A DNA stretch of 34,078 nt. Origin: a bacterium. GTDB taxonomy: Bacteria > Margulisbacteria > Marinamargulisbacteria > SXXA01. Position 1 is the stretch's first letter. Each line of letters opens with the position of its first letter. Shown piece by piece: positions 163 through 33,900 of the stretch. Below the pieces are notes generated by a model. It had not been told where the DNA came from, made no database searches, and saw only the letters and a list, made by a program, of their open reading frames with translations. Position numbers and translations under genes: made by a program. Where the stretch lies: positions 1 to 34,078 of the forward strand of contig CANNCG010000001.1 in assembly GCA_947502965.1 (NCBI GenBank), in the 5' to 3' direction.

Positions 163-1041
163 ATGCACAAGAAAAAACTTCCTCCAGCACCCAATAACAC
201 CTTCAATGACTTCCTGCTCTACACCACGCCCAATGGGAAGGTGAAGATCGAAATATTCCTCCACAATGAAACCATCTGGCTGACGCAGGAAAAAATCTCC
301 CAGCTGTTTGGGGTCGATAGAACGGTGGTCACCAAGCACCTCAAAAATATCTTCAAAAACAACGAACTCCAGGAAGATTCAGTATGTGCAAAAATTGCAC
401 GTACTGCCACCGATGGCAAAAAATATCCGACAAAATACTACAACCTCGACGCCATCATATCCGTCGGCTATCGGGTCAACTCCACCCAGGCGACACAATT
501 TAGAATATGGGCAACAGAGCGGCTCAAAGAATACATTATCAAAGGGTTTACCATGGATGATGAGCGGCTAAAAAATCCCGACAACATCTTTGGAAAAGAT
601 TATTTTGATGAACAGCTTGAACGCATTCGGGATATCCGATCTAGCGAACGCCGGTTTTATCAGAAAATAACGGACATTCATGCCCAGTGTAGTTCGGATT
701 ACGACAAAAACAGCGAAGCAACACAGGCATTCTTCGCGACAGTACAAAATAAACTCCATTGGGCGATTTCCAGAAAAACCGCCGCAGAAATCATTGTTTC
801 CCGAGCAAATGCCAACAAAGACACCATGGGGCTAACCACATGGAAAAATGCACCGGCGGGCAATATCCGTAAGACGGATGTTAGTATTGCTAAAAATTAT
901 CTCAATGAAGATGAAATGGATCATCTGAACCGCATCGTGAGCATGTATCTGGACTATGCAGAGCTACAGGCAAAGAATAGTATGCGCAGTACAGAATTAT
1001 TCAAGACAGACGCATGGCGTCAGATTTTGATCAGCATATAA
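163..1041 (+). CDS. RhuM-family protein, 3' end apparently disrupted
   Basis: Family-typical blocks: YNLDAIISVGYRVNSTQATQFRIWATERLKEYIIKGFTMDDERLKN, ERIRDIRSSERRFYQKITDI and IAKNYLNEDEM...LDYAELQAK. The ORF stops about 20 codons after LDYAELQAK. The family's C-terminal motif (YRIIQDR..SDFD) is readable in another frame at 981-1073. Confidence 0.7.
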   Translation: MHKKKLPPAPNNTFNDFLLYTTPNGKVKIEIFLHNETIWLTQEKISQLFGVDRTVVTKHLKNIFKNNELQEDSVCAKIARTATDGKKYPTKYYNLDAIISVGYRVNSTQATQFRIWATERLKEYIIKGFTMDDERLKNPDNIFGKDYFDEQLERIRDIRSSERRFYQKITDIHAQCSSDYDKNSEATQAFFATVQNKLHWAISRKTAAEIIVSRANANKDTMGLTTWKNAPAGNIRKTDVSIAKNYLNEDEMDHLNRIVSMYLDYAELQAKNSMRSTELFKTDAWRQILISI

Positions 1042-21404: not shown

Positions 21405-22046
21405 TCATCCATCTATCATTGGCTGACTCAATGTCGCCAGCTTAGGGCCACCAATGACTTTTCTGAGCTTCTCTATGGCTTTTTTATAGATACGCGATAT
21501 TTGAGATTCGGACACCCCTATGAGTTCACCTATTTGTTTAAAGGTTAAATCATCTTTGGTATGGGACAGCACTATTTTTCGCTCACGCATCGACAATACT
21601 TTCATCGCTTCTTGCAATTGAACACCTGTTTCAATTTCATTTTCAAAATCGGCCCTGTCTTGAATGGCCATCAAAATATAGGCAGCATCTGTCACCCAAT
21701 CGTACAAGCGTGAGGGATCTGCACGCGTAATAAAGCGAATATGGTCTTTCATCGCACCAACAATACGGGCCCTCGCCAGCGGCCAAATATCGGGGCAGCG
21801 GCTAGGAACCCAGACCTTTACCGTCTCCAAAAACTCCAAATGGGCCACCGTTTTGAGGTCATCTATTTCGCTATCCACCACATGGTAGGGCAAATGACGA
21901 CTATAACGACGTACAATGGCATTTACTTTTGGCTGAAAGCGGATTAAGACCGCATTCACATGTTTAGACAACAATTGAACTTTTAGCTGATTCAAAACAG
22001 GCAATTCCAATTTTTCCCACAACACGGTCAATGTGTCTGACATCAA
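21405..22046 (-). CDS. fliA: Sigma-70 family sigma factor, FliA/sigma-28-like
   Basis: Region 4 HTH: LSMRERKIVLSHTKDDLTFKQIGELIGVSESQISRIYKKAIEKLR. Last gene of the flagellar operon, as in Pseudomonas/Vibrio. The ATG overlaps the upstream stop. Confidence 0.7.
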   Translation of the reverse strand: MMSDTLTVLWEKLELPVLNQLKVQLLSKHVNAVLIRFQPKVNAIVRRYSRHLPYHVVDSEIDDLKTVAHLEFLETVKVWVPSRCPDIWPLARARIVGAMKDHIRFITRADPSRLYDWVTDAAYILMAIQDRADFENEIETGVQLQEAMKVLSMRERKIVLSHTKDDLTFKQIGELIGVSESQISRIYKKAIEKLRKVIGGPKLATLSQPMIDG

Positions 22047-22312
22047 GAAATGCGAAGCTCCGCGAGCACCAATGTCCAGTACGCATTCTCACATTCTTTG
22101 TCCGCCAATTCTTGCGGGAGCAGTACTTGGGCCAACATTTCAGCCAAAGACTTTACCTTATCTGAAATCCACAGTTTGTCTTCGTCCGACAATCCCGCCA
22201 AATTTTCCAAACGAATATCCACATAATTGGGACCGGTTGCCCTATGACGCACACGCCGGTAGTCACTTTGGGGAATATGCTCTAGAAAAAAACGGCGGTC
22301 GTCATCACTCAT
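22043..22312 (-). CDS. Hypothetical 89-aa acidic protein, translationally coupled between flhA and fliA
   Basis: ATGA overlaps at both ends. No recognisable family. Occupies the position where flhF/flhG normally lie. Confidence 0.55.
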   Translation of the reverse strand: MSDDDRRFFLEHIPQSDYRRVRHRATGPNYVDIRLENLAGLSDEDKLWISDKVKSLAEMLAQVLLPQELADKECENAYWTLVLAELRIS

Positions 22313-24384
22313 TCGCTGATCATTCCAATAGATTGGACCTTGATTTGCGGCACAATCTCATTGTACGAGAGCACCGACAACTGGGGGAAATTCCTCTCCG
22401 AGAACCGCTTTAAATGGACCCGAAGACGGGGAGAACAGAGCGAAACAGGGGCCTTTTCCATTTTTCGAAAGTTGGCCATATGCTCCCCAATCTGACTCAA
22501 TACCTGCTCTCCCAGTTGTGGATCCAAAGCCAGAAATGAGCCATATTCCGATTGATGCACAGAATTAATCATGAGCTCTTCTAAACGCGGATCAATCGTA
22601 AACACAGTCAGGACGTCATCCGTATCCACATAGCCTGTACAAATCTGACGTGCCAAGGCTTGACGCACATATTCTGACAGCAAATTGGTATCACGAGACA
22701 CATGCGCATAGTCTGCCAAACGCTCCAAAATAGTAGACAAATCACGAATCGACACACGCTCCCGAACAAGAGATTGCAACACTTTGTGCACCTGCCCCAA
22801 AGAGAGCATATCGGGAACCAATTCTCTCACGATAGCCGCATTCGAATTTTTGACAAGCTCCAACAGGGATTGGACGTTTTGACGGGTCATAATCTCATCC
22901 GCATGCTGCTTGATGGCATCCGAAAAATGATTGGCAATAAAGTCTGTAATATTTTGTGCCGGGATCAGGTTGTCTTGCAAAGCCTCCAACTGATCCTCAG
23001 ACACCCATGCGCCTGGAAAAGCCGTGATCGGGTCTGTCGCCTCGATGCTATCAATGCCCTTGCGCTTGAGTTCAGCGGACGATTTTGGCACAAAGAAGTG
23101 GCCAGGTAACGCCTCCCCCACCGCGATTTTGGTACCCCGAATATCGATTTGATAGTGATTGGGCGGCAAGCTCAAATCGTCCATCACCCGCACCCCAGGA
23201 ATAACAAACCCCAATTCCTGTCCAATGTGATACCGCACCAAGGTAATCCGTTCCAGTAGTGGCCCATTTTGACTGGGGTCAATCAACGGCACCAAATTGC
23301 GCCCCGTTTTGAGACTAATAGGATCCAAGCCCAATGTGTTGAGCAAATTCTCTGGCTTTTTGAGCGCATCTTTGGCCGCTTCTTGGGTAGAATCTGTCGC
23401 CATTTCATCTTCTTGGCGCTGGGTTTTCATAATAAAGGCAGCCAAAGCACCCATCCCTACACCACAGGCCAAAAAAGGAACAGTCGGCATACCTGGAATA
23501 ATACCAAACAACATGAGCACCACAGACGTCACCGCAAAGGCCTTGGGCTGTGAAAAAATCTGGGCAGATACATCGGAGCCCAGACTCGCATCAGACGCCG
23601 ATTTTGTCACGACCAAACCTGTTGCGATCGAAATCAACAAAGCCGGAATCTGTGCCACCAAACCATCCCCAATGGTGAGGGTGGTGTAAAGGGTCATCGC
23701 CTCCCCTATTGCCAGATCTTTCTGGAAACGGCCAATAATAATACCACCGATGATGTTTACAAAAACAATAATAATACCGGCAATGGCGTCCCCTTTGACG
23801 AATTTATTCGCACCATCCATAGACCCAAAAAACGTGGATTCGCGCTCCAGTTTTTTACGACGCTCTCGGGCCTGTTCCGCATCGATCAAGCCTGCGTTCA
23901 TATCCGCATCAATACTCATCTGCTTACCAGGCAAGGCATCCAAAGTAAAACGCGCAGCAACCTCAGCAACACGCTCAGACCCTTTTGTAACCACCAAAAA
24001 TTGGACAAGGGTAATAATAGCAAAGGCCACAATCCCCACCACAAAATTGCCACGGGTGACAAATCCGGCAAAAGCCGCGACCATATGTCCGTCAAAGTCA
24101 GGGCCCAATGACAAAATCAATTTGGTCGACGCCACGTTAATCGAGAGACGAAACAGCGTTGTAATGAGCAACAAAGAGGGGAAGGCGGCAAAATCCAAAG
24201 GCTGTTTCAAATACATAGAGACCAAAAGAATGGCCACAGAAATAGCCAGATTGATTACCATCAAATAATCCAACATAATGGTTGGAATAGGCATGATCAT
24301 GACGCCGATGATCAGGATAACAATCGTCGCCAACAAGACGTCTGCTAAACTAAAAAGTTCTCTTAATTGTCTGAAACCAAACAT
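22309..24384 (-). CDS. flhA: Flagellar-type T3SS export gate protein FlhA (FHIPEP family)
   Basis: N-terminal polytopic domain (IMPIPTIMLDYLMVINLAISV..., FVKGDAIAGIIIVFVNIIGGIIIG) plus a large cytoplasmic domain. ATG 24384 lies 4 nt after the flhB stop and is preferred over 24438. Confidence 0.9.
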   Translation of the reverse strand: MFGFRQLRELFSLADVLLATIVILIIGVMIMPIPTIMLDYLMVINLAISVAILLVSMYLKQPLDFAAFPSLLLITTLFRLSINVASTKLILSLGPDFDGHMVAAFAGFVTRGNFVVGIVAFAIITLVQFLVVTKGSERVAEVAARFTLDALPGKQMSIDADMNAGLIDAEQARERRKKLERESTFFGSMDGANKFVKGDAIAGIIIVFVNIIGGIIIGRFQKDLAIGEAMTLYTTLTIGDGLVAQIPALLISIATGLVVTKSASDASLGSDVSAQIFSQPKAFAVTSVVLMLFGIIPGMPTVPFLACGVGMGALAAFIMKTQRQEDEMATDSTQEAAKDALKKPENLLNTLGLDPISLKTGRNLVPLIDPSQNGPLLERITLVRYHIGQELGFVIPGVRVMDDLSLPPNHYQIDIRGTKIAVGEALPGHFFVPKSSAELKRKGIDSIEATDPITAFPGAWVSEDQLEALQDNLIPAQNITDFIANHFSDAIKQHADEIMTRQNVQSLLELVKNSNAAIVRELVPDMLSLGQVHKVLQSLVRERVSIRDLSTILERLADYAHVSRDTNLLSEYVRQALARQICTGYVDTDDVLTVFTIDPRLEELMINSVHQSEYGSFLALDPQLGEQVLSQIGEHMANFRKMEKAPVSLCSPRLRVHLKRFSERNFPQLSVLSYNEIVPQIKVQSIGMISE

Positions 24385-24388
24385 AGGG

Positions 24389-25468
24389 TTATAGGGTATC
24401 CTGTCGATGTCCGCGCTTTTTGCGCAAATTATACACAAAGGCCAATATTTGAGCTACCGCCTTATAGTATTGCGGCGGCACTTCCGTGTCCACCTCCACT
24501 ACAGGGAACAAGGCTCTGGCAAGCGCCACATTTTCTACAATGACAATATTATTCTCTGAGGCAATACGCTTTATGGTTTCCGCAATTAATAACTTCCCTT
24601 TGGCCACCACCACAGGGGCTTTCATCTTGTCCGGTTTGTAGGCCAATGCAATGGCAATATGCGTGGGGTTTGTCACCACCACATCAGCCCCTGGCACAGC
24701 CCCCATTTGTCTCCCCATAGACATCTGCCTTGCCGCTTCTTTTTGACGCTGCTTGATTTGAGGATCTCCTTCGAGACGCTTGTATTCATCTTTGATTTCT
24801 TTTTTGGTCATTTTCATAGACTTCAAATGCTCATGTTGTTGATAAAAATAATCAAAAATAGCAACTGCAATATAAAACATACCGACCCGAACAACTACTT
24901 TCATCACCAAATTCCCGGTAAAAGACATGCCCTGCCATGGATCCAAACTTTGTGACAAGATCACAATGGGAAACTCTTCCACAACAACCCCGTAAATCAA
25001 CCATATGATCACTATCATTTTAATCGTTGACTTGACCAATTCTACATATTGTTTGAGGGCAAAAAACTTCTTAAACCCCTCAATGGGGTTCAGTTTTTCT
25101 AATTTAGGGGCAATGGAGGACATTGAAAAAAGAAATCCCGTTTGCAGCGATTCGATAATCAAAGCCGTCATAAATGTCGCAAAAAACAAAGGCGCCATAG
25201 CAAATAAAAAAGAATACACCGTATCTTTTAGCAAATTCCCCACAACGCTTTCAGAAAACACCAAAGGAATATAACCAAAAGAATTCCTTAAAATGATTTC
25301 CATTTCTGCCCAAAGATGACCGACAGAGGATTTCAAGGTAAAGAAAGAGACAAAAATCATCGTGACGGAGGTGATATCTTTGCTCTTGGCAATTTGCCCT
25401 TTTTCCCTGGATTCCCTCAATTTATGGGGGGTAGGTTCCTCTGTTTTATCCCCAGAATCCTCACCCAT
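24389..25468 (-). CDS. flhB: Flagellar-type T3SS substrate-specificity switch protein FlhB
   Basis: GDKTEEPTPHKLRESREKGQIAKSKD start, four TM segments and the NPTH autocleavage site (VVVTNPTHIAIALAY). Confidence 0.9.
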   Translation of the reverse strand: MGEDSGDKTEEPTPHKLRESREKGQIAKSKDITSVTMIFVSFFTLKSSVGHLWAEMEIILRNSFGYIPLVFSESVVGNLLKDTVYSFLFAMAPLFFATFMTALIIESLQTGFLFSMSSIAPKLEKLNPIEGFKKFFALKQYVELVKSTIKMIVIIWLIYGVVVEEFPIVILSQSLDPWQGMSFTGNLVMKVVVRVGMFYIAVAIFDYFYQQHEHLKSMKMTKKEIKDEYKRLEGDPQIKQRQKEAARQMSMGRQMGAVPGADVVVTNPTHIAIALAYKPDKMKAPVVVAKGKLLIAETIKRIASENNIVIVENVALARALFPVVEVDTEVPPQYYKAVAQILAFVYNLRKKRGHRQDTL

Positions 25469-26242
25469 TTATGTGGTCCCCAAATAAAAAAATACGCGCA
25501 ACAAGTGTTCTGAAATGGCTTCCATAATGGTGTAAATCTGAGAGACTAAACCTGGCGCAATGGCCCAAAAAACCAATACACTGACCATGGGTTTGATTTG
25601 AAATCCCATTTGAAACACATTGATTTGTTCTGCCACTTTGTTGAGCATGCCAAACCCAAAATCTACCATGAATACCACCAACAAAATTGGGGCAGACAGC
25701 TGTACCGCCAATCCAAAAATATAGGTCCCTAGCTGGGCAAGATACAGCATTCCTGCGCCAAAGTTGGGAATCTTTCCTACCGGCAACAGATTAAAGCTCT
25801 GCATCAAGGCGGACAAAACCAAATGATGCCCATCAATGGCCAAAAACATCATCGTCGCCGTCCACTTGAGCAACAAAGACAACAATGACATGGAACGTCC
25901 ACTAGACGGGTCCAAAAGAGAGGCCACACTCAAACCCGCCTGCGTGTCCATGAGACTGCCGGCAAATTCCATCCCCGTGACCAACAGATCGGTCACAAAA
26001 CCGATCATTGCACCAATGAGCAATTCAGAAAAAAAAGCAAAACCAAAGGTTAACACATTGTCTGGGACGTCTTGTGAAACCGGTACCAAAAAAATAAAAA
26101 GCCCCGAAATCCAAAACATCAGCATGACCTTGGGCAACAGGGGCAATTCTTTTCTACTCAATACAGGCGCCGTAATAAACAGACCTATGAGACGGGTCAT
26201 AATGAGAAAAAAAACAGTGACAACCTGAAGGTTAATAAACAT
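25469..26242 (-). CDS. fliR: Flagellar-type T3SS export gate protein FliR
   Basis: 257-aa polytopic protein between fliQ and flhB, with a FliR-like N-terminus (FFLIMTRLIGLFITAPV). Confidence 0.85.
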   Translation of the reverse strand: MFINLQVVTVFFLIMTRLIGLFITAPVLSRKELPLLPKVMLMFWISGLFIFLVPVSQDVPDNVLTFGFAFFSELLIGAMIGFVTDLLVTGMEFAGSLMDTQAGLSVASLLDPSSGRSMSLLSLLLKWTATMMFLAIDGHHLVLSALMQSFNLLPVGKIPNFGAGMLYLAQLGTYIFGLAVQLSAPILLVVFMVDFGFGMLNKVAEQINVFQMGFQIKPMVSVLVFWAIAPGLVSQIYTIMEAISEHLLRVFFYLGTT

Positions 26243-26245
26243 AAA

Positions 26246-26515
26246 CTACCGAGAATACAACGGAATGTTACGCCAAAGCTCCAACGTCATTTCCATGACA
26301 ATTCTGGCCACCCAAGGAAAGGTAGCCACTACCACTAGCAAAACAACCACCATTTTAGGAACAAAAGTCAGAGTTTGCTCTTGCACCTGTGTCACCGCCT
26401 GTAAAAGCGCAATCACCAAACCAATCAACAAACCTACGCCCACACTGGGCAAACTTGCCAATAAGATGACCTGAACGGCAGAATTTAGTATACCGGTTAC
26501 AATATCAATGTCCAT
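26246..26515 (-). CDS. fliQ: Flagellar-type T3SS export gate protein FliQ
   Basis: 89-aa two-TM protein with ...GLLIGLVIALLQAVTQVQEQTLTFVPK, characteristic of FliQ/SctS. Confidence 0.9.
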   Translation of the reverse strand: MDIDIVTGILNSAVQVILLASLPSVGVGLLIGLVIALLQAVTQVQEQTLTFVPKMVVVLLVVVATFPWVARIVMEMTLELWRNIPLYSR

Positions 26516-26518
26516 AAT

Positions 26519-27559
26519 TCACGACCTCCTCAGCTTCTGTGTTATGATTGTCTCTTGCACCCAGCTATCCGTCTTATTAGCAAGAGGCATTTCTACTGTA
26601 GCCGGTCCATCTGATCGGAATACCAAATGAACAGGATAATAGCTACCAGATTGCGGAATGATCTCAAGAACCATATTTTTTTTACTCTGCGGGGGCAAGT
26701 TTAGACTAAGGAGCTCCACAATAGCCGGAAATCCTGTTCCCCCAACATTCCCAGTCTGGAGCACTTGGGTGCCATTAAGACGTACCACTGCCCTCGCAAT
26801 ACCTCCCACTGGCGAAAAAAACAACATCACACGCCTAGCAACACGGTCTGGATTTTCCAGATTAGCATGAATTTTATAGGTTACCCCATAGTTCCCTTTT
26901 AAAGGGTATTCTGATAGAGGATTTCGCACAAAGGGCAGTCCGCCTATGGGAATCTCACTCACAATATCCCCAATCCTGTAAAAAACATCCCTTACCATAG
27001 TAGGGGAAAGATACACCATCGGCGTGACATCTCTCGCCATGACCGCATAGGAAGCATCTGGATACTCAGGATCGATGACACGGGATTCAAACACGGTGTC
27101 CACATCGGACTCACATTCAAAAATACCAGAAACAATCTCATCTGGCTTGATCAGCACATCCAAGAGCATGCTTTCCTGCGTACTAAGGGACCACATAGCC
27201 TTTGTTTTGGGCACTTGATTCCAGTATCTGGAAACCGCCTTATGTCCTGCAAAGACCTCATCTAAAACAGGTCCCGCCGCCGCCAATAAAGCCCCCATTT
27301 TTCCAGAGCCAGCTGTTGCTTTTACGGTAATGATAAATCTCAAGGGAATCGATGTCACATTTTTATGATGGTACAGCAGACGTAGTGACTTCCTTGCAGG
27401 CACGGGATAGATAAACAAGGATGCAGGCTCTGAAAGACGTTCTGGACTATTGCTCACGACCAATAGGTCAACAGCAGACACCGTCAACGACAACCATCCC
27501 CAGAAAAAAAGAATACTGCTTTTAAAAAAAAAGAAGCTGAGAGGTCGCCCCACACTCAT
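26519..27559 (-). CDS. Hypothetical secreted/periplasmic protein embedded between fliP and fliQ
   Basis: The ATG overlaps the fliP stop (ATGA), and the stop lies 3 nt before the fliQ start. Signal-like N-terminus ...ILFFWGWLSLTVSA|VD. The remaining ~320 aa have no recognisable family. Confidence 0.65.
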   Translation of the reverse strand: MSVGRPLSFFFFKSSILFFWGWLSLTVSAVDLLVVSNSPERLSEPASLFIYPVPARKSLRLLYHHKNVTSIPLRFIITVKATAGSGKMGALLAAAGPVLDEVFAGHKAVSRYWNQVPKTKAMWSLSTQESMLLDVLIKPDEIVSGIFECESDVDTVFESRVIDPEYPDASYAVMARDVTPMVYLSPTMVRDVFYRIGDIVSEIPIGGLPFVRNPLSEYPLKGNYGVTYKIHANLENPDRVARRVMLFFSPVGGIARAVVRLNGTQVLQTGNVGGTGFPAIVELLSLNLPPQSKKNMVLEIIPQSGSYYPVHLVFRSDGPATVEMPLANKTDSWVQETIITQKLRRS

Positions 27560-28302
27560 CGGTAGCTAACCAAAAGCCCCTGTATAATCAGATTCCACCC
27601 ATCCGTTAGCACAAAAAGCAATATTTTAAAGGGCAAGGAAATCATAGCCGGAGATAACATAAACATTCCCAAAGACAATAAAATATTAGAAACAATCAAA
27701 TCAATGACAATAAAGGGAATAAACAACAAAAAGCCCACTTGAAATGCCGTTTTGAGTTCTGAAATAATAAAGGCAGGAATCAACACAAAAAAAGGCACTT
27801 CTTCATAATCCATCGTATACGGCACTTTTGAAAATTCCAAAAACAAAGCCAAATCTTTTTCTCTCGTGTACTTCAACATAAAAATCTTGAGGGGTTTAGA
27901 GGCTTCATCAAGGGCCTGCATCTGAGAAAGTGTCCCTTCTTGATAGGGCTTAATCGCGTTATTGCTCACCTGATCCCAAACAGGGGTCATGACAAATACG
28001 CTCAAGAATAGGGCCAAGGACACAATAACCATATTGGGAGGCGCCTGCTGGGTACCAATGGCCTGACGAACCATACTCAAGACAATCACTATACGCAAAA
28101 AGCAAGTCGTGGACATCAGAAAAAAAGGAATCAGACCAATTGCAGACAAAAAGAAAAGAAGATTAAGGGTTCTGCTAAAATTTTGGGGCGTTGCCAATGC
28201 ATCTTGGACACCCAAATTTAAAAAGCCAGGGTCTTGTTGTGCATACACTGTCACAGGAACCAGCACCAAAAACCCCACAAAAACCCAAAACAATCGCTTC
28301 AT
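27556..28302 (-). CDS. fliP: Flagellar-type T3SS export gate protein FliP
   Basis: Signal peptide plus SAIGLIPFFLMSTTCFLRIVIVLSMVRQAIGTQQAPPN and LIPAFIISELKTAFQVGFLLFIPFIVIDLIVSNILLSLGM, hallmark FliP/SctR blocks. Confidence 0.95.
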   Translation of the reverse strand: MKRLFWVFVGFLVLVPVTVYAQQDPGFLNLGVQDALATPQNFSRTLNLLFFLSAIGLIPFFLMSTTCFLRIVIVLSMVRQAIGTQQAPPNMVIVSLALFLSVFVMTPVWDQVSNNAIKPYQEGTLSQMQALDEASKPLKIFMLKYTREKDLALFLEFSKVPYTMDYEEVPFFVLIPAFIISELKTAFQVGFLLFIPFIVIDLIVSNILLSLGMFMLSPAMISLPFKILLFVLTDGWNLIIQGLLVSYR

Positions 28303-28538
28303 TTTAGCTTATCCAAGACCTTTATTTCTTTTGCATTAATACCCAACAAAAACTCATGATCTCTCACCGAAACCAACATCAATGAAATACCCTGATCCAA
28401 GCCTTTGCGATCTAAAACTTTAATTTCTTCTGTAAAGGGGTGCTTTTGAGCACGTTTTGCCATTTTCGAAAACACAAACAACGCGCCCCCCAACAAGGTC
28501 AAAGAAAAAAGAACCTGAAGGGAGTACCCGATCGTCAT
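28299..28538 (-). CDS. fliO: FliO-like single-pass membrane protein
   Basis: 79 aa with one TM helix, then ...ISLMLVSVRDHEFLLGINAKEIKVLDKL. Immediately upstream of fliP and overlapping it. Confidence 0.7.
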   Translation of the reverse strand: MTIGYSLQVLFSLTLLGGALFVFSKMAKRAQKHPFTEEIKVLDRKGLDQGISLMLVSVRDHEFLLGINAKEIKVLDKLK

Positions 28539-28541
28539 ATA

Positions 28542-29054
28542 TTAGGTGTTCGGGGCTGATTTAATAGCCGTAATACGAAGTCCATAATTGTTATCCACAG
28601 CAACCACCTCACCTTGGGCGATAACCTGTCCATTTACAACCAAATCCAATGGTTCTCCCACCAGACGATCCAGCTCCACAATGGCACCATCAGACAGCTC
28701 AAATACATCTTTAAGAGACACCTGACAACGACCAAGCTCTACAGACACAGTAACAGGAATGCGGTTAAACACATCTTCCTCCAATTTTTGGCCACTCGTA
28801 TTGGCACTGGGCGTCAATACCGGAAATTCAACATCTGCCACTGCAGGGCGCGACGAAGACGCCAAGTCTGGAGACGGAGTGTCCCAAGAAAAGGAAGGGG
28901 CATCGGAGGCCGTTTCTTTAATCTTGGTCTCAGCCTTTGTTTTTGGATCGGCCTTGGGCTCACGACTGACAGGGAACCCATCTCCTCCAAAGGCATCTTT
29001 TAAAACAGGATCAATACCGTGTAAGGGATCATCAAATACTTTTTTCTTAGCCAT
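28542..29054 (-). CDS. fliN: Flagellar motor switch protein FliN (SpoA domain)
   Basis: C-terminal IPVTVSVELGRCQVSLKDVFELSDGAIVELDRLVGEPLDLVVNGQVIAQGEVVAVDNNYGLRITAI. ATG 29054 (MAKKKVF) overlaps the parA-like stop by 8 nt. Confidence 0.85.
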   Translation of the reverse strand: MAKKKVFDDPLHGIDPVLKDAFGGDGFPVSREPKADPKTKAETKIKETASDAPSFSWDTPSPDLASSSRPAVADVEFPVLTPSANTSGQKLEEDVFNRIPVTVSVELGRCQVSLKDVFELSDGAIVELDRLVGEPLDLVVNGQVIAQGEVVAVDNNYGLRITAIKSAPNT

Positions 29055-29787
29055 GCGAAAGCACCTCATTAATTAACCGTCGATAGTCATCAGCAGCACT
29101 AGAACGTGGGGAAAATTCAAAAATTGTTTGTCTATAACCTGGAGACTCAGACAGACCTACGCTTAGCCGAATGGGCGATGAAAGTTGCCCGGGGAATACA
29201 CGCTCAAGACTGTCCATGATATGGGCTGTTTTACGATTACGCTTATCATAAAACGTTGGTACAATTTTACAAATACGGATTTCCTTTCCGAGGATTTTAT
29301 TCACGATATCAATATTATTCAATAGCTGCTTAATTCCAACCAAAGACAAATATTCCATGGACACTGGCAATAAAAGTTCATCCGAAAAAATAAGAGAATT
29401 TTGATTCATCAAATTCATCGACGGCGCACAATCAACAATAATAAAATCATATCCCGTTAGAGATGCCAAGCGACGACTCAAGACATGCTCTCTGCCTTTT
29501 TCTGTTGCCAAGCGCATCTCTGCTGGGAAAAGTCGTTCATTTGCACAAATAATATCCAAATTGGGCCTAGCAGAAACGATGCATTCGGATACAGGTCTGA
29601 GGCCCATGACCACGTCATAAACCGTAACATCTGATTCCACACCCAAGTAATATCCGGCAGACCCTTGGGGATCTGTGTCCACGATCAAAACGCGTTTACC
29701 AAGAAGGGCCAGACCGTGGGCCATATTGACAACTGTACTGGTTTTACCGGTCCCACCTTTGTAATTAATGACTGCCAACTTACGCAT
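29047..29787 (-). CDS. ParA/Soj-type P-loop ATPase encoded between fliM and fliN
   Basis: Deviant Walker A AVINYKGGTGKTSTVVN, then LIVDTDPQGS and IIVDCAPS. There is no parB-like neighbour. Confidence 0.85.
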   Translation of the reverse strand: MRKLAVINYKGGTGKTSTVVNMAHGLALLGKRVLIVDTDPQGSAGYYLGVESDVTVYDVVMGLRPVSECIVSARPNLDIICANERLFPAEMRLATEKGREHVLSRRLASLTGYDFIIVDCAPSMNLMNQNSLIFSDELLLPVSMEYLSLVGIKQLLNNIDIVNKILGKEIRICKIVPTFYDKRNRKTAHIMDSLERVFPGQLSSPIRLSVGLSESPGYRQTIFEFSPRSSAADDYRRLINEVLSHG

Positions 29788-29801: not shown

Positions 29802-31226
29802 TTACAATTCATCGTCGAGGTCATCCCAAGAAAATTCACTATCATCGGCATCACCATGAACCTCTTCTTGCCCATGTGTTTCGGCATTTTCAGACGCTTC
29901 ATCTTCATCTTCTGAAAAATCAAAAAGCGCATCTGAAGAGTCTGTCTGCGCATCGTCGTGATCGTCTTCGTAATCCAATTCATCTTCAATTTCAAATTCA
30001 TGATCGTCTACCACTGGCTCATGTAAAAAATCTTCCTCAAGCAACGTTTCCTCCTCAGGTATGATAGACGGGGACGCCACAGCTACAGCCGCCGCCACAG
30101 CACCCAGCATGGCACCCGGAACAGCCACCGGCACAGACATTGGACGCACATACACTTCTTCTTTGAGAGAAGATAGGCTGTCTTCAATTTTAACAGAAGG
30201 GGCAACCTCTATGGGTTGTCGAGACGCAGGATTTTTCTCCACAACAGGCTTCTTCTCCGGCGGGAGACTCACACCCTTCTGCCCAAAACGGTGCAATTGA
30301 ATCGACAGTTTACGCGATGGCGAAACCCCAGGATATCCAAGCCATGGCTCAGAATCGGCCCCGAAATAAACCTTCAAGGGCTGATCTGTAACCGTATCCA
30401 AAACAATCACATCCCCCACACGAAGTTGGCGCAATTCCGACATTGTCAGAGAAGCAGTCCCAAGAGAAACAGAAACATTCACCTTCAAGGCATGAAGGGT
30501 TTGCTTAGAAAAATTAACCTGCTTCTCTTTTTTCGGCTTATTGATTTGCGACTGATGCACCAATTCCCGCAACAGTGTATTGGGGTACGCAATCACAAAC
30601 TTACGCAGTTCTTGTTGCCCAAAAACCAAATAAAAACCAAATTGGACATAGGCCTCTCGAAAAGAAATCTTAGGATTTCTACGATACGGCCCCACAGCAA
30701 AATCAATTACGGCGTGCGCAGGCGGAATACGCCACGTTTTAGCGACTTCGGGCAACAAAGCTTCGATTTGCGCCTTGAGTATACTCGTTTCCATGGACGT
30801 AAAGGAATCTGAATGCCCCACACTCCCAGATCCGCCAACCAAACGATTGATCATCATATCTGCCAAATCCCAATCAAAAAGCAAATTAATTTTATGCCCC
30901 GCAGAAAAAACGACATCGGCCTGGACAACTTTTTCTTTCGCATTCTCTAAAAATTCTTTATAGCTCATTTGTGTGGCAAGGACAGTATGCAGTTCAACCT
31001 TAATGTCCATATCCGTAGAGAATTTCACACAAAGACGTTCTGCAAGACGGTAATGCAAATAATGCAAAAAACGCAATTGCTCACGTGTTAAACTGTCAAA
31101 ATTACTGGTACGAATCGGGTGGATCTCAATAGCATCTACGGACTCCCGTTGATGCACCGTTGTCCAATCCCCAATGGCAGGAGCAAGTTTAATCGTTCTA
31201 TGAAACTTTGGGCTATACTTTTGCAC
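29802..31226 (-). CDS. fliM: Flagellar motor switch protein FliM with atypical termini
   Basis: IRTSNFDSLTREQLRFLHYLHYRLAERL, INRLVGGSGS and a C-terminal SpoA domain (SLTMSELRQLRVGDVIVLD...) match FliM. There is no LSQxEIDxLL motif in residues 1-37. A 159-aa extension follows residue ~315. Confidence 0.85.
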   Translation of the reverse strand: MQKYSPKFHRTIKLAPAIGDWTTVHQRESVDAIEIHPIRTSNFDSLTREQLRFLHYLHYRLAERLCVKFSTDMDIKVELHTVLATQMSYKEFLENAKEKVVQADVVFSAGHKINLLFDWDLADMMINRLVGGSGSVGHSDSFTSMETSILKAQIEALLPEVAKTWRIPPAHAVIDFAVGPYRRNPKISFREAYVQFGFYLVFGQQELRKFVIAYPNTLLRELVHQSQINKPKKEKQVNFSKQTLHALKVNVSVSLGTASLTMSELRQLRVGDVIVLDTVTDQPLKVYFGADSEPWLGYPGVSPSRKLSIQLHRFGQKGVSLPPEKKPVVEKNPASRQPIEVAPSVKIEDSLSSLKEEVYVRPMSVPVAVPGAMLGAVAAAVAVASPSIIPEEETLLEEDFLHEPVVDDHEFEIEDELDYEDDHDDAQTDSSDALFDFSEDEDEASENAETHGQEEVHGDADDSEFSWDDLDDEL

Positions 31227-31919
31227 CTAGATTCGCTCCAATCTCATTTTTAATGGGGTTCCATCAGACAATAAGGGAGACCCTTTGTAGATAACGACTT
31301 CTAAACGTTCGCGCTTCCCCGTCCCAATGTCCGAGACAAGAACAAGCTCCCCATCTGGATAGGGGACGACCACGGGGTCATCGAATATCGTAGCAAGGGC
31401 AGCCGAGGAACCTGTTTCCCCACTGATTAGAGGAGAGAGACTAACACTCAACTGTTTTTCTGCTTCATAGGTCCGTTTCCGTTTCATTTCTGTGGCGAGT
31501 TCCAACTCCCGACGTTTTACCGTAGGACCTGTACCAGCGGCACCTTCAAATACAACCCGGAGAAGTACCATAGATTTGAGGAGAGTATCATACACGCTGA
31601 CCTCATAGCCGTCATCCTGTTTAACAATACTCTGCACAGGCCCCCTCCCTATAACAGCACCGGAAGAATCCGAATACCAAACCATAGCCCCCAGTAATTT
31701 TGACTTCAAAAAATAATCCACGCGCATCCCGACAGTCAGGGAAGATTTCTGCTCCCCAACCTGTTTTTTTACCTCAGATTCTACCCATTCCTTCATCAAC
31801 GGAGAGTCAAAATTCATATTCATATCTACGGACATGAGAGGACAAGAAAGAACAAGTAGCAAAAAGAAAAAGAGAAAGCAGATTCTACCCAACATCCCAC
31901 AAAAGCGTATTTTAGACAT
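31227..31919 (-). CDS. Putative lipoprotein at the position normally occupied by fliL
   Basis: MSKIRFCGMLGRICFLFFFLLLVLS|C lipobox-like signal. Start at ATG 31919, overlapping the upstream stop by 8 nt. No recognisable FliL motif; placement is by synteny only. Confidence 0.55.
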   Translation of the reverse strand: MSKIRFCGMLGRICFLFFFLLLVLSCPLMSVDMNMNFDSPLMKEWVESEVKKQVGEQKSSLTVGMRVDYFLKSKLLGAMVWYSDSSGAVIGRGPVQSIVKQDDGYEVSVYDTLLKSMVLLRVVFEGAAGTGPTVKRRELELATEMKRKRTYEAEKQLSVSLSPLISGETGSSAALATIFDDPVVVPYPDGELVLVSDIGTGKRERLEVVIYKGSPLLSDGTPLKMRLERI

Positions 31920-32577
31920 AAAAAAATATCTGATCCCCCTCTGAGAGCGCATCTAGGGAAGCCTGCGACTCGTGCGGATTATCTTGTTGCTGACGCCCCT
32001 GTTGAAATCCAGAGTGGGAAGGGAACTCGTCAAACGCCAGGTCAACTTCACCCATTTGCACAAAACGCACCAGCACAGAGCGGTCTAGGATATCGGACAA
32101 ACGGGTCTGCAAGACGGATTTTTGATCCTGCGCTTTTGCAAACAAATCCTCGCCAGCGAGCTGCACCACGATGACGAGACCCTGCGCATTTTTTTCAAAC
32201 CGAACACGTATCATTAAGGGCGCTTCTTTGGGCATCACCACAGGCATACCCAGGATGGATCGCACTTCCTGAAGAATACTGACAGAGAGATCCGGCAATT
32301 GATCCATGCCAAAGGCAGGCCCAGCAACCATCCCCTGCAACAACTGTGTCCCTAACTGAAGGTCAGACATACTAGACTCAGAGGCCAAGCGCCCCTCTAT
32401 ATCATCCTCCGCAGACCCCATGAGGAAGCTACCATCTTCCTGCGCGATCATGCGAACACCCGCGTCTTCTTTACTGGCCTGCTGAAACATAGAACCAAAG
32501 GGCATGTCGCTGCCGGGCGTTTCAGCCCCACGAGACACCCCCCCAGAAAAAAACGGTGGCAGAGACTCTAACCGCAT
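31912..32577 (-). CDS. Hypothetical protein at the fliK position, weakly FliK/T3S4-like C-terminal region
   Basis: Synteny (first gene, before the fliL position and fliM). The segment PLMIRVRFEKNAQGLVIVVQLAGEDLFAKAQDQKSVLQTRLSDILDRS... followed by a Q-rich tail loosely resembles the Flg_hook/T3S4 pattern. 221 aa is short for FliK. Confidence 0.35.
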   Translation of the reverse strand: MRLESLPPFFSGGVSRGAETPGSDMPFGSMFQQASKEDAGVRMIAQEDGSFLMGSAEDDIEGRLASESSMSDLQLGTQLLQGMVAGPAFGMDQLPDLSVSILQEVRSILGMPVVMPKEAPLMIRVRFEKNAQGLVIVVQLAGEDLFAKAQDQKSVLQTRLSDILDRSVLVRFVQMGEVDLAFDEFPSHSGFQQGRQQQDNPHESQASLDALSEGDQIFFYV

Positions 32578-32589
32578 TGCATACCGCGC

Positions 32590-33651
32590 CTACGCTGCAG
32601 CCTTTGGCTTTTCTTGCAATTCTTTTTTAATTTTATACCGATAGCCATCGAGAAGCTGTCCTAATTTTTTGGAATACCGACCTTGTTTAATAAATGATTT
32701 CTTAATAGGCAAACGTTGATGCAAACGCAGTCCGTTCCGCTCCGCAATTTCGATCAACTGGGAAATAGAGAGTGCCTGATTACGCCCATACGATGGGTTT
32801 CGTCCTACGTAAATCCGGCCTAAGTCGCGAACACCCGCTTGAATAAAAGGCTCAATATCTGGGTTCAACTCCAAGGGAACCGTCACAGCAATATCTGAAG
32901 GTAACAAATTTTTTGCGACCTCCAAAGCCGCCAACATATCTTTTTTCGACGTTGGGGAGTGCCCCTCAAACTTTGTGCCAGGTTCAGGGGTGAAATTCTG
33001 AAGCGTAAACTCATGGATATGCCCATACTGTTTGTGAAGGGAGGCGATTTCTTTCATGACATCCCTGCGATGAGAGGCCGATTCACCAATACCCACCATA
33101 ATCCCTGTATTAATAGGAAACCCCAATTTTCCTGCCCACTCCACCACTTTGAGCCGCAATTCCAACCGTTTCCCTGGAGATTCAGGATAGATTTTGGCGA
33201 CATGGGCCTCATCCACAGAATCCAACATAATCCGACATACGGCCGCAACTTCATACAGACGTTTGAGCTCTACAGGACTCAAAAAACCCAGTTCCACCAC
33301 AGGAATAAAGCCCTCTAAAAAACCCAACTCACTAATGGTATACACGTAGTCCACATAAGACTCAAATCCCCACAAATCCAACAGCGCCCGCACATGCGGA
33401 AATTTATCAGGTCGCTCACCAGAGATATACAGCACCTCTCTCGCGCCTTCAGCTCTGGCTTGCTTGCACAACTTAATGGTGGAATAAGGAACCATCAGGC
33501 TATCTCTTTTACGAAACCCACAATAAGGACAATGGTTACGACATAACCGAGACAAAGACATCGGCAACGCCAAAGAGTAAGTCAACGCATCCGGCGCGTC
33601 CTCTAATGACAACTGAATATCGTCTTCCACGCTTTTGGTTACTTGCTCCAC
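32590..33651 (-). CDS. cofG: Radical SAM protein, CofG-like (FO synthase subunit 1 family)
   Basis: LTYSLALPMSLSRLCRNHCPYCGFRK (CxxxCxxC in CofG context), LYISGERPD and GFLSPVELKRLYEVAAVCRIMLDSV. GTG 33651 has AGGAG 8 nt upstream; the ORF-track start is 33657. Confidence 0.6.
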   Translation of the reverse strand: MEQVTKSVEDDIQLSLEDAPDALTYSLALPMSLSRLCRNHCPYCGFRKRDSLMVPYSTIKLCKQARAEGAREVLYISGERPDKFPHVRALLDLWGFESYVDYVYTISELGFLEGFIPVVELGFLSPVELKRLYEVAAVCRIMLDSVDEAHVAKIYPESPGKRLELRLKVVEWAGKLGFPINTGIMVGIGESASHRRDVMKEIASLHKQYGHIHEFTLQNFTPEPGTKFEGHSPTSKKDMLAALEVAKNLLPSDIAVTVPLELNPDIEPFIQAGVRDLGRIYVGRNPSYGRNQALSISQLIEIAERNGLRLHQRLPIKKSFIKQGRYSKKLGQLLDGYRYKIKKELQEKPKAAA

Positions 33652-33900
33652 AAACACAACTCCTAATTTAACATTTTTGTTACTACTTAAGCATCTTCAC
33701 ACATTCATGTAAAAAAATACGTCAACTAAATAAATCCAACTATTTTTCGAGATACAGAAAAAAAAATCTTATACGCCCTACCTAGCAATGGCCTATAAGG
33801 GCATTGAAAGTGCCATCATAACATTCTTTTTATAGAATACCAGCCTATGGATCGCACTTGAATTTACAGCAAACGGCCCCCCAGAAATACATTAAGCGTC

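What the first reader, a model, noticed from the sequence alone, without database searches (positions are those of the whole stretch)
29047..29787. ParA/Soj-type ATPase inserted between C-ring genes fliM and fliN
The 246-aa protein has the deviant Walker A KGGTGKT, DTDPQGS and a ParA-like overall layout, with no parB neighbour. It lies 14 nt after fliM and overlaps the fliN start by 8 nt, whereas fliM and fliN are normally adjacent. The usual flagellar MinD/ParA-type regulator FlhG (FleN) is encoded after flhA-flhF, and that slot is empty here. It is established that FlhG binds FliM/FliY through their N-terminal EIDAL-type motif and controls flagellar number and placement, and that ParA-like ParC/PpfA position chemotaxis arrays. 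I infer a relocated or independently recruited C-ring positioning or assembly ATPase. The novel acidic tail of FliM, encoded just upstream, is a possible partner.
Basis: partly seen in the sequence, partly recalled or inferred. Interest (0 to 1): 0.7.

Follow-up and report, generated by a model that had tools for sequence, protein, structure and literature searches.

The report
Partition-type ATPase fixed between flagellar switch genes
A well-conserved ATPase of the type that normally segregates chromosomes sits between the flagellar switch genes fliM and fliN across a whole group of uncultured marine bacteria, where it probably helps place or build the flagellar base, although this has not been tested.

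Summary
A 246-aa ORF lies on the minus strand at 29047-29787. It starts 14 nt after fliM and overlaps the fliN start by 8 nt. There is no parB in the window, and no flhF or flhG follows flhA.

The protein is not a relocated FlhG. Sequence and predicted fold place it with Soj-type ParA (TM-score 0.92-0.96). FlhG, FleN and MinD are far more distant. It lacks FlhG's C-terminal membrane helix and its N-terminal DQAxxLR motif.

The fliM-parA-fliN order holds in every relative of this ParA whose context I could read, down to 38% identity. All of them belong to the Marinamargulisbacteria-like clade. The ParA is as conserved as FliP and FlhB, and its ATPase residues are invariant. One nested lineage has lost it. 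About 40 more distant Margulisbacteria-like operons and 77 operons from other phyla never have it.

An FSWDDL motif at the C-terminus of FliM occurs only where the ParA is present.

My best reading (about 0.5) is an independently recruited, flagellum-dedicated ParA that positions or helps assemble the basal body. The main rival is that it is the lineage's own chromosomal ParA. I could not check whether a separate parAB pair exists elsewhere in these genomes. I rate it a new variant of a known kind.

The parts
29047..29787 (-). Soj-type ParA ATPase gene (246 aa). Deviant Walker A KGGTGKT at residues 10-16, DTDPQ at 37-41, Walker B Asp119.
   Evidence: ORF. Pfam AAA_31, E = 3.2e-45. Best solved-structure matches are ParA/Soj, E = 1e-37 to 1e-28. 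AF2 model pLDDT 91.7. Foldseek TM-score 0.92-0.96 to Soj/ParA. Catalytic residues are invariant in 121 family members.
29802..31226 (-). fliM (474 aa), directly upstream. Its stop codon lies 14 nt before the ParA start.
   Evidence: Pfam FliM and FliMN_C; TIGR01397. Spacing read.
29805..30059 (-). Acidic, low-complexity C-terminal tail of FliM, about 85 aa. The last 120 residues are 36% Asp+Glu.
   Evidence: Acidic tails are also present in relatives that lack the ParA (L006, L096), so the tail alone does not depend on the ParA.
29817..29834 (-). FSWDDL motif, four residues from the FliM C-terminus (...DADDSEFSWDDLDDEL*). Candidate docking motif.
   Evidence: Found in 17 ParA-containing loci, including the most divergent ones (L170, L173, L174). 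Found in 0 of 42 loci without the ParA. Missing in three ParA-containing sublineages. Correlation only.
28542..29054 (-). fliN (170 aa from the MAKKK start). It sits where parB sits in a parAB operon, and its start overlaps the ParA stop by 8 nt.
   Evidence: Pfam FliMN_C; TIGR02480 fliN above its cut-off. Overlap read.
28983..29054 (-). FliN N-terminal peptide MAKKKVFDDPLHGIDPVLKDAFGG: a basic start followed by a conserved F(D/E)DPLxxIDP(I/V)MxxAF motif.
   Evidence: Conserved across the marine clade, including the lineage without the ParA. Absent from the 96-aa FliN of more distant relatives. The start resembles ParB N-terminal ParA-activating peptides such as MAKNKVLGRG (PMC11229316).
21405..24438 (-). 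flhA (22309-24438), an 89-aa ORF (22043-22312) and a FliA-like sigma factor (21405-22046). This is the position where flhF-flhG normally lie, and it is empty.
   Evidence: Relatives show the same order. In 38 of 77 control operons from other phyla a MinD/FlhG-like gene lies downstream of fliP, after flhA where flhA was detected.
24389..28538 (-). Rest of the operon downstream of fliN: fliO, fliP, an unknown 346-aa gene, fliQ, fliR and flhB.
   Evidence: The order is conserved in relatives.

Best explanation
This is a real, selected ParA ATPase of the Soj type, which is the nucleoid-associated partition type and not the membrane-bound MinD/FlhG type. It was inserted between fliM and fliN in the common ancestor of a marine Margulisbacteria clade (Marinamargulisbacteria-like). 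Since then it has been kept as part of the C-ring and export operon, translationally coupled to both neighbours.

Shown: its family and fold, intact ATP-binding, hydrolysis and dimerisation residues, the absence of a membrane-targeting helix, deep conservation of the gene order, strong purifying selection, and one secondary loss.

Inferred: it works like other orphan ParA/MinD ATPases that are encoded next to their cargo. ATP-bound dimers would bind a matrix, probably the nucleoid, and a peptide on the cargo would engage them. Here the cargo would be the C-ring itself. The engaging peptide could be the N-terminal peptide of FliN, which is encoded in the parB position, or the FSWDDL end of the acidic FliM tail, or both. 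The outcome would be control of where, how many, or whether basal bodies assemble. This would take the place of the FlhF/FlhG pair that is missing from the operon.
For: Family and fold:
- Pfam AAA_31 scores 154 bits. NCBIfam ParA_partition and RepA score about 85 bits, against 37 bits for bacterial MinD.
- Solved-structure sequence search: ParA/Soj E = 1e-37 to 1e-28 over residues 2-244; FlhG 3e-6; FleN 2e-5; E. coli MinD 2e-4.
- The AF2 model has pLDDT 91.7 and its last helix ends at residue 244 of 246.
- Foldseek: Soj/ParA TM-score 0.92-0.96, rmsd 1.4-1.8 A; FleN/FlhG TM-score 0.74-0.78, rmsd about 4 A.

Active enzyme:
- K10, G11, G12, K15, T16, D37, D39, Q41 and D119 are invariant in 120-121 of 121 family members.

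Synteny:
- The order fliM-parA-fliN is seen in the window and in L001, L003/L004, L005, L086, L087, L089, L091, L093, L095, L097-L102, L104, L105, L109, L110, L115 and L116.
- It also holds in the most divergent members: L174 (51% identity), L173 (44%) and L170 (38%).
- These synteny-defined members form one clade in a neighbour-joining tree (bootstrap 60%). FlhG sequences form a separate clade (100%).

Selection:
- ParA identity to the window protein is 55-68%. This is comparable to FliP (58-77%) and FlhB (51-69%), and far above FliM (27-42%).

Specificity:
- 0 of 77 flagellar operons from other phyla have a ParA/MinD-like gene upstream of fliP; 38 have one downstream of it, in the FlhG position.
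- About 40 more distant Margulisbacteria-like operons have fliM and fliN adjacent.

Cargo logic:
- ParA/MinD genes are usually encoded near their cargo, and partner proteins act through a charged N-terminus (PMC10241942).
- FliN starts with MAKKK and sits in the parB position.
- The FliM FSWDDL motif occurs only with the ParA: 17 ParA-containing loci against 0 of 42 without.
Against: - There is no direct evidence of any interaction or localisation.
- I could not search the rest of any of these genomes. A separate canonical parAB pair, and flhF, flhG or minD elsewhere, are neither shown nor excluded.
- The lineage L006/L096 lost the gene without other visible changes to the operon, so the gene is dispensable there.
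- One of the two best-documented DNA-binding arginines of Soj (BsSoj R218, CcParA R224) is Ser, Ala or Gly in 100 of 121 members. Nucleoid binding is therefore uncertain (PMC6393308; PMC7229837).
- The candidate partner motifs are imperfect. FSWDDL is missing in three ParA-containing sublineages. The FliN motif also exists without the ParA, and the basic residues at the FliN start are not conserved everywhere.
- These organisms are uncultured, and their flagellation pattern is unknown.
Confidence: 0.5

Rival explanations
1. It is the lineage's ordinary chromosome-partition ParA (Soj), which happens to be transcribed within the flagellar operon. ParB and parS would be encoded elsewhere. The linkage would at most couple expression to the cell cycle.
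For: By sequence and fold it is a full-length Soj-type ParA with all catalytic residues. It retains the equivalents of BsSoj R189 (R183, 115 of 121 members) and R215 (R207, 102 of 121). I could not show that a second ParA exists in these genomes.
Against: No parB lies in the window or in the flanks (about 1-10 kb, as the contigs allow) of eleven relatives' loci. No parS-like site is in the window.

More than 150 cluster representatives score 158-277 bits against the protein. The nearest ones outside the family are non-canonical ParA-likes with a KGGTGKT Walker A, not solved Soj proteins, which score 105-132 bits.

The Soj R218 equivalent is lost in most members. The gene is translationally coupled to fliM and fliN, and this order has been kept down to 38% identity, which a housekeeping gene would have no reason to do. 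One nested lineage dropped it from the operon and left no remnant.
Confidence: 0.2
2. It is a ParA-like positioning ATPase for a different cargo, and is only co-expressed with the C-ring genes. Candidates are chemoreceptor arrays (as with ParC and PpfA), type IV pili or the division site.
For: ParA-like ATPases position chemotaxis arrays, and FlhG can affect cell division (PMC11407121, PMC12826062). Pilin-like and T2SSF genes lie just beyond the sigma factor gene in the window and in relatives.
Against: ParC and PpfA are encoded inside chemotaxis clusters next to their partners. No che genes appear in the window or in the flanks I examined. The pilus genes are on the other strand and outside the operon. 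The only neighbours that never change are fliM and fliN.
Confidence: 0.1
3. It is a relocated FlhG (FleN/YlxH), that is, the usual MinD-type regulator of flagellar number moved from the flhA-flhF-flhG position.
For: It has a flagellar gene context, and the usual flhF/flhG slot is empty.
Against: The mean Kimura distance to ten FlhG sequences taken from control operons is 2.58, against 1.40 to TtSoj. Those FlhG sequences form their own clade with 100% bootstrap. They carry an N-terminal DQAxxLR motif and a 25-30-aa C-terminal amphipathic extension. This protein has only 9 residues before the Walker A and ends 2 residues after the last core helix. Solved-structure E-values are 1e-6 to 1e-4 for FlhG, FleN and MinD.
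Confidence: 0.02
4. It is a decaying or selfish insertion, such as a remnant of a plasmid or mobile-element partition gene, with no role for the cell.
For: Its sister group in the tree includes small ParAs from mobile-element contexts; P0162, for example, lies next to an integrase. One lineage has lost the gene.
Against: Catalytic residues are invariant in 121 sequences. Identity is as high as for FliP and FlhB. Start and stop coupling to the neighbours is tight and conserved, and the gene is present in every other sampled lineage of the clade.
Confidence: 0.03

Closest known systems
Soj / chromosomal ParA (type Ib partition ATPase; e.g. Thermus thermophilus Soj 1WCV/2BEK, Helicobacter pylori Soj 6IUB, ParA 8RAY)
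   Same: Full-length match in sequence and fold (E = 1e-37 to 1e-28; TM-score 0.92-0.96). It has the deviant Walker A with the signature lysine and the same size, with no extra domains. Equivalents of BsSoj R189 and R215 are retained.
   Different: No parB is adjacent; fliN sits in that position. The gene lies between fliM and fliN. The Walker A reads KGGTGKT rather than KGGVGKT. The equivalent of BsSoj R218 / CcParA R224 is Ser, Ala or Gly in most members. Many non-canonical ParA-likes score higher against it than the solved Soj proteins do.
FlhG (FleN, YlxH, MinD2): MinD-type ATPase that sets flagellar number and place and binds FliM/FliY
   Same: It is a ParA/MinD-superfamily ATPase encoded with flagellar genes. 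The FliN and FliM motifs here have a similar character.
   Different: It belongs to a different subfamily. It has no C-terminal membrane-targeting helix, no N-terminal DQAxxLR helix and no FlhF partner. It lies between fliM and fliN rather than after flhA-flhF.
ParC/ParP (Vibrio) and PpfA/TlpT (Rhodobacter): ParA-like ATPases that position chemoreceptor arrays
   Same: These are orphan ParA-type ATPases without ParB that are encoded inside the operon of their protein cargo, and a cargo-associated protein acts as the partner.
   Different: They sit in chemotaxis clusters, not in the C-ring operon. I had no reference sequences for these clades, so relatedness was not tested.
McdA/McdB: carboxysome positioning on the nucleoid
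   Same: A ParA-type ATPase encoded next to a protein-organelle operon, with the gene directly downstream encoding the partner that acts through its N-terminus. The fold is similar (TM-score 0.84-0.89).
   Different: Sequence similarity is low (47 bits, E = 2e-11). The cargo is a microcompartment.
MinD4 of Haloferax volcanii: positions the archaellum and chemotaxis arrays
   Same: Another case in which a ParA/MinD-family ATPase other than FlhG places a motility machine (bioRxiv 10.1101/2020.04.03.021790; PMC11407121).
   Different: It is archaeal, of the MinD type, and is not encoded inside the motor operon.

Membership tests
FlhG / FleN (MinD-type flagellar regulator) | Sequence and fold closest to MinD | tested here: not met
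   Solved-structure E-values: FlhG 4RZ2 2.9e-6, FleN 1.8e-5, E. coli MinD 1.8e-4, against Soj 4e-34. TM-score 0.74-0.78 against 0.92-0.96 for Soj. Ten FlhG sequences from control operons form a separate clade with 100% bootstrap.
FlhG / FleN (MinD-type flagellar regulator) | C-terminal amphipathic membrane-targeting helix beyond the ATPase core | tested here: not met
   The protein ends 2 residues after the last core helix (H230-244 of 246). That helix aligns with the last helix of TtSoj. Reference FlhG sequences carry a 25-30-aa extension such as GFFEKILSF or HLEFFVERLVQ.
FlhG / FleN (MinD-type flagellar regulator) | N-terminal helix with the DQAxxLR motif that activates FlhF (PMC12826062) | tested here: not met
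   Only 9 residues (MRKLAVINY) precede the Walker A lysine. Reference FlhG sequences show MDQAQSLR, SDQAQTLR and similar, with 15-47 residues before the Walker A.
FlhG / FleN (MinD-type flagellar regulator) | Encoded with flhF, downstream of flhA | tested here: not met
   flhA is followed by an 89-aa ORF and a sigma factor gene. Relatives show the same order. Whether flhF lies elsewhere in the genome could not be checked.
ParA/Soj (type Ib partition ATPase) | Deviant Walker A KGGxGK[ST] with the signature lysine, Walker A' and Walker B aspartates | tested here: met
   K10, G11, G12, K15, T16, D37, D39 and D119 are invariant in 120-121 of 121 family members.
ParA/Soj (type Ib partition ATPase) | Soj-like fold over the full length, without extra domains | tested here: met
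   AF2 model pLDDT 91.7. Top Foldseek hits are B. subtilis Soj model 9A6N, ParA 8RAY, TtSoj and HpSoj, with TM-score 0.92-0.96.
ParA/Soj (type Ib partition ATPase) | Cognate parB directly downstream, and parS sites | tested here: not met
   fliN is the downstream gene. No ORF I scanned in the window matches ParB, and none is recorded in the relatives' flanks. No parS-like match with up to 3 mismatches. The rest of the genome was not searched.
ParA/Soj (type Ib partition ATPase) | Basic patch for non-specific DNA binding (BsSoj R189, K201, R215, R218; PMC6393308, PMC7229837) | tested here: inconclusive
   The R189 equivalent R183 is kept in 115 of 121 members and the R215 equivalent R207 in 102 of 121. 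The R218 equivalent (position 211) is S, A or G in 100 of 121 and K or R in only 11. The mean net charge of residues 175 to the end is +1.8, against +2 for TtSoj.
ParA/Soj (type Ib partition ATPase) | Located near oriC and required for chromosome segregation | not testable with these tools
   The window and the loci are fragments, and there is no genetics.
ParC / PpfA (chemotaxis-array ParA-like) | Encoded in a chemotaxis cluster next to ParP or TlpT | tested here: not met
   No che genes appear in the window or in the flanks examined.
ParC / PpfA (chemotaxis-array ParA-like) | Groups phylogenetically with ParC or PpfA | not tested

The most novel reading that the evidence does not exclude
The flagellar C-ring is itself the cargo of a ParABS-like system. 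FliN is encoded in the parB position and has a basic, disordered N-terminal peptide, so it would act as the ParB-like activator. The long acidic FliM tail ending in FSWDDL would dock onto the basic face of the ParA dimer, or mimic DNA on it. ParA would then space or count basal bodies by a nucleoid-based ratchet. That would be a mechanism for flagellar placement that needs neither FlhF/FlhG nor the membrane.
Probability: 0.25. Interest if true: 0.8.

Novelty: new variant of a known kind. Interest (0 to 1): 0.6.

Why it matters
The only well-studied ParA/MinD-family regulators of bacterial flagella are FlhG proteins. These are membrane-bound, MinD-like and work with FlhF. How bacteria without FlhF/FlhG place and count their flagella is largely open.

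Here a whole uncultured marine clade has wired a nucleoid-type ParA directly between two C-ring genes and has kept it under strong selection. If it acts on the C-ring, it would add flagella to the cargo list of true ParA-type ATPases. It would also be a second, independent case of this ATPase superfamily being recruited to flagellar assembly.

The system is small enough to test. It needs one ATPase, two peptides, and a comparison between natural lineages that have the ParA and the lineage that lost it.

Tried and rejected
- parS search in the window (TGTTNCACGTGAAACA, up to 3 mismatches): nothing found.
- FliP-anchored scan of reference genomes: flooded by other phyla, so only three relatives were recovered (L006-L008). 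The other 77 loci were reused as a negative control.
- Naming the nearest ParA-likes outside the family through their cluster members: almost none carry names or organisms. Their contexts are not flagellar (L088, L171, L172).
- Extending the family with the most divergent member, P0183: only a handful of unnamed relatives were found.
- First bootstrap test of family monophyly gave low values (9-22%). Two sequences I had labelled as outsiders, P0127 and P0183, nested inside the family. Their contexts then showed that they are true members lying between fliM and fliN. The redefined family has 60% neighbour-joining bootstrap support. I made no maximum-likelihood tree.
- The 89-aa ORF after flhA as FlgV: rejected. 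FlgV has two transmembrane helices (PMC11607428) and I see no hydrophobic stretch in this ORF's sequence (read by eye).
- The basic FliN start as a ParA-specific feature: rejected as a strict rule. L087 and L091 lack basic residues, and the ParA-less L006 and L096 have them.
- The acidic FliM tail as ParA-specific: rejected, because L006 and L096 keep it. Only the terminal FSWDDL motif tracks the ParA.
- Finding a second parA, a parB, or flhF/flhG elsewhere in these genomes: not possible with the tools and caps available.
- Literature searches for a ParA between fliM and fliN, or for flagella of Marinamargulisbacteria: no description found in the held library.
Full report
**What is in the window**

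The minus strand carries one long flagellar operon. In order it holds:
- a radical-SAM gene (32590-33657);
- two genes with no Pfam match (31912-32577 and 31227-31952);
- fliM (29802-31226);
- the ParA-like ORF (29047-29787);
- fliN (28542-29054), fliO and fliP;
- an unknown 346-aa gene (26519-27559);
- fliQ, fliR, flhB and flhA (22309-24438);
- an 89-aa ORF (22043-22312);
- a FliA-like sigma factor gene (21405-22046).

The ParA-like ORF encodes 246 aa with KGGTGKT at residues 10-16 and DTDPQGS at 37-43. It starts 14 nt after the fliM stop codon. Its own stop codon overlaps the fliN ATG by 8 nt (ATGGCTAA). None of the other ORFs I scanned (all those of 100 aa or more that are not shadow ORFs inside a larger gene) matches ParB or a second ParA/MinD protein. 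There is no parS-like site. The one thing to add is that everything lies on the minus strand.

**What kind of ATPase it is**

All profile and structure comparisons agree that it is a Soj-type ParA and not a MinD or FlhG.
- Pfam AAA_31 scores 154.7 bits. NCBIfam ParA_partition and RepA score about 85 bits, against 36.7 bits for bacterial MinD.
- Against solved structures, the best matches are ParA 8RAY (E = 1.8e-37), Thermus Soj (4e-34) and Helicobacter Soj (3e-29), each aligned over residues 2-244. McdA scores 2e-11, FlhG 4RZ2 2.9e-6, FleN 1.8e-5 and E. coli MinD 1.8e-4.
- An AlphaFold2 model built on 32 orthologues has a mean pLDDT of 91.7. Its last helix spans residues 230-244 of 246.
- Foldseek ranks Soj/ParA structures first (TM-score 0.92-0.96, rmsd 1.4-1.8 A). 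McdA follows at 0.84-0.89, and MinD, FleN and FlhG score 0.74-0.82.

I took ten genuine FlhG sequences from control operons. These show the two hallmarks described in the FlhG review PMC12826062: an N-terminal DQAxxLR helix, and a C-terminal amphipathic extension of 25-30 aa. The protein here has neither. Only nine residues precede its Walker A lysine, and it ends two residues after the last core helix, which aligns with the last helix of Soj. The 'relocated FlhG' reading is therefore excluded.

**Whether it is an active enzyme, and whether it can still bind DNA**

In 121 family members, the signature lysine K10, the P-loop residues G11, G12, K15 and T16, D37 and D39 of DTDPQ, Q41 and the Walker B D119 are each invariant in 120-121 sequences. 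This argues for an enzyme that binds ATP, dimerises and hydrolyses ATP.

The DNA-binding patch of Soj is defined as BsSoj R189, K201, R215 and R218 (PMC6393308). CcParA R195 and R224 are the two widely conserved residues (PMC7229837). Here:
- the R189 equivalent, R183, is kept in 115 of 121 members;
- the R215 equivalent, R207, is kept in 102 of 121;
- the R218/R224 equivalent, position 211, is Ser, Ala or Gly in 100 of 121 and Lys or Arg in only 11.

DNA binding is therefore possible but not assured.

**How widely the gene order is kept**

A word-indexed search found more than 120 clusters of orthologues at 54-99% identity. The few that carry names come from Candidatus Marinamargulisbacteria single-cell genomes and MAGs.

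I read the context in three ways: by looking up contigs for individual hits, by a FliP-anchored scan of reference genomes, and by a FliM-anchored scan of metagenomes.
- Every member of this ParA family whose surroundings could be read lies between fliM and fliN. This holds for the window and for L001, L003/L004, L005, L086, L087, L089, L091, L093, L095, L097-L102, L104, L105, L109, L110, L115 and L116.
- An exhaustive HMMER search of 1.84 billion cluster representatives shows a compact family, followed by a drop in score.
- The three most divergent members lie in the same place: P0121 (51% identity, L174), P0127 (44%, L173) and P0183 (38%, L170).
- In a neighbour-joining tree these synteny-defined members form one clade (60% bootstrap). 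FlhG sequences form a separate clade (100%).
- The nearest proteins outside the family are ParA-likes with a KGGTGKTTT Walker A and long N-terminal extensions that contain a weak zinc-finger match, together with small ParAs from mobile-element contexts. Their contexts are not flagellar.
- These outside proteins score 158-249 bits against the query, well above the solved chromosomal Soj proteins (105-132 bits).

**Evolutionary history**

In a tree of concatenated FliP, FliQ, FliR and FlhB (939 columns), the marine clade is monophyletic in 100% of bootstraps. This clade is recognisable by the radical-SAM gene at the head of the operon. Most of its members also carry the extra gene between fliP and fliQ.

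Two loci in this clade lack the ParA: L006 (MAG Bpl_23) and L096. They group together (100% bootstrap) and are nested among lineages that have it. In 0 of 300 bootstraps did the ParA-containing lineages form a group that excludes these two. In L006 the space between fliM and fliN is 355 nt of AT-rich non-coding DNA with no ParA remnant. The simplest history is one ancient insertion followed by one loss.

About 40 more distant operons have fliM and fliN adjacent and no ParA. Their FliM is 24-30% identical to the window's. One related reference-genome locus of this type, L007, is labelled Candidatus Margulisiibacteriota.

Among 77 flagellar operons from other phyla, none has a ParA/MinD-like gene upstream of fliP. 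Thirty-eight have one downstream of fliP, after flhA where flhA was detected, which is the FlhG position.

Within the clade the ParA is 55-68% identical to the window protein. FliP is 58-77% identical and FlhB 51-69%. FliM is only 27-42% identical. The ParA is therefore as constrained as the core export proteins.

**Leads on a partner**

Work on ParA/MinD ATPases shows two regularities. These genes are usually encoded near their cargo. Their partners act through a charged, disordered N-terminus and are often encoded just downstream (PMC10241942). Here the downstream, translationally coupled gene is fliN.

*FliN N-terminus.* Across the marine clade FliN has gained an N-terminal extension. It begins, in the window, MAKKKVFDDPLHGIDPVLKDAFGG and carries a conserved F(D/E)DPLxxIDP(I/V)MxxAF motif. 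The 96-aa FliN of the distant group lacks this extension. The basic start resembles ParB N-terminal peptides such as Helicobacter MAKNKVLGRG, which bind ParA (PMC11229316). However, the basic residues are not conserved in all ParA-containing lineages, and the motif is also present in the two ParA-less loci. The evidence is therefore suggestive only.

*FliM C-terminus.* The acidic FliM tail ends in (D/E)(D/E)FSW(D/E)D(L), which reads ...DADDSEFSWDDLDDEL* in the window.
- The motif is present in 17 ParA-containing loci, including the most divergent (L170, L173, L174).
- It is absent from all 42 loci without the ParA. These include L006 and L096, which still have a long acidic tail.
- It is also absent from three ParA-containing sublineages.
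- The nominal Fisher p-value of 1e-9 is not corrected for shared ancestry. In effect the motif has one origin with the ParA and one joint loss.
- The motif could equally be a site for CheY, or for the FliN/FliM SpoA domains. From my own knowledge, FliH binds FliN through conserved N-terminal tryptophans.

**Most likely mechanism, and its rivals**

I commit to the following as most likely (about 0.5). This is an independently recruited ParA dedicated to the flagellum. Its ATP-bound dimer engages C-ring subunits, through FliN, the FliM tail, or both. By doing so it controls where, how many, or whether basal bodies assemble. This would be the role that FlhF/FlhG play elsewhere and that is missing from this operon. 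The family assignment, enzyme integrity, gene order, selection and evolutionary history are shown. The matrix it binds, its partner and the cellular outcome are inferred.

The main rival (about 0.2) is that it is simply the clade's chromosomal ParA. I could not test this, because no tool let me search the rest of any genome of the clade for parB or a second parA. Arguing against it are:
- the absence of parB in every flank examined;
- the closer similarity to non-canonical ParA-likes than to the solved Soj proteins;
- the lost Soj arginine;
- the very long retention of tight coupling to fliM and fliN.

A different cargo (about 0.1), a relocated FlhG (about 0.02) and a functionless insertion (about 0.03) are less likely.

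**Comparison with what is known, and novelty**

The protein works most like the orphan ParA systems that are encoded with their cargo, namely ParC/ParP, PpfA/TlpT and McdA/McdB. In biological role it may parallel FlhG, or archaeal MinD4. By membership it belongs to the ParA/Soj structural family, but it fails the parB-adjacency criterion of a partition system and fails all FlhG criteria.

Searches of the held literature found no description of a ParA between fliM and fliN, and none of flagella in Marinamargulisbacteria. Public records call these proteins only 'ParA family protein' or 'chromosome partitioning protein'. I rate it a new variant of a known kind. The interest is moderate to high, limited by the lack of any functional evidence and by the organisms being uncultured.

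Noticed in passing
window 29817-29834 (- strand), C-terminus of FliM; also L170, L173 and L174: A conserved FSWDDL-type motif ends the acidic FliM tail. It is present only in operons that carry the ParA and was lost together with the ParA in the L006/L096 lineage. Three ParA-containing sublineages also lack it.
   Followed up: partly
window 28983-29054 (- strand), N-terminus of FliN: FliN of the marine clade has an N-terminal extension with a conserved F(D/E)DPLxxIDP(I/V)MxxAF motif, often starting MAKKK. It resembles both the EIDAL-type CheY/FlhG-binding peptides and ParB N-terminal peptides. More distant relatives have a bare 96-aa FliN.
   Followed up: partly
window 31160-31226 (- strand), N-terminus of FliM; alignment A2: FliM lacks the classical N-terminal LSQxEIDALL CheY-binding motif. 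Instead it has a conserved LxPA(I/L)GDWT motif that is shared by near and distant Margulisbacteria-like FliM proteins.
   Followed up: no
window 26519-27559 (- strand): A 346-aa gene with no Pfam match is inserted between fliP and fliQ. A relative shows only a faint DUF3370 hit. It is conserved in most of the marine clade but absent from L086, L093, L095, L101 and all distant relatives.
   Followed up: no
window 32590-33657 (- strand): A radical-SAM gene heads the operon upstream of fliM in nearly all members of the marine clade. Its role in a flagellar operon is unknown.
   Followed up: no
window 22043-22312 (- strand): An 89-aa ORF between flhA and the sigma factor gene is conserved in relatives, where it is 88-93 aa. 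I see no hydrophobic stretch in its sequence, so it does not look like the two-transmembrane-helix FlgV that occupies a similar position in other phyla (PMC11607428).
   Followed up: partly
L088 8001-9836; proteins P0123-P0161: The nearest ParA-likes outside the family share the KGGTGKTTT Walker A. They carry N-terminal extensions of 100-300 aa with a weak zf-FCS-like zinc-finger match. In L088 a small ORF of 102 aa follows. This looks like an uncharacterised orphan ParA group.
   Followed up: partly
L174 1030-2305: A Terminase_6N-like ORF lies directly upstream of a truncated FliM (158 aa) in one metagenomic contig. It could be an assembly chimera or a phage insertion into fliM.
   Followed up: no
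L003 6401-7997 versus L004 6411-7997: Two assemblies of the same organism differ in the repetitive acidic FliM tail: a 447-aa ORF plus a 101-aa ORF in one, and a single 528-aa ORF in the other. The tail is either error-prone to assemble or variable in length.
   Followed up: no
window 163-1041 (+ strand): A RhuM-family virulence-protein gene lies in a low-GC stretch (0.42) at the start of the window, next to sugar-nucleotide biosynthesis genes. It may be a mobile or island-like segment.
   Followed up: no
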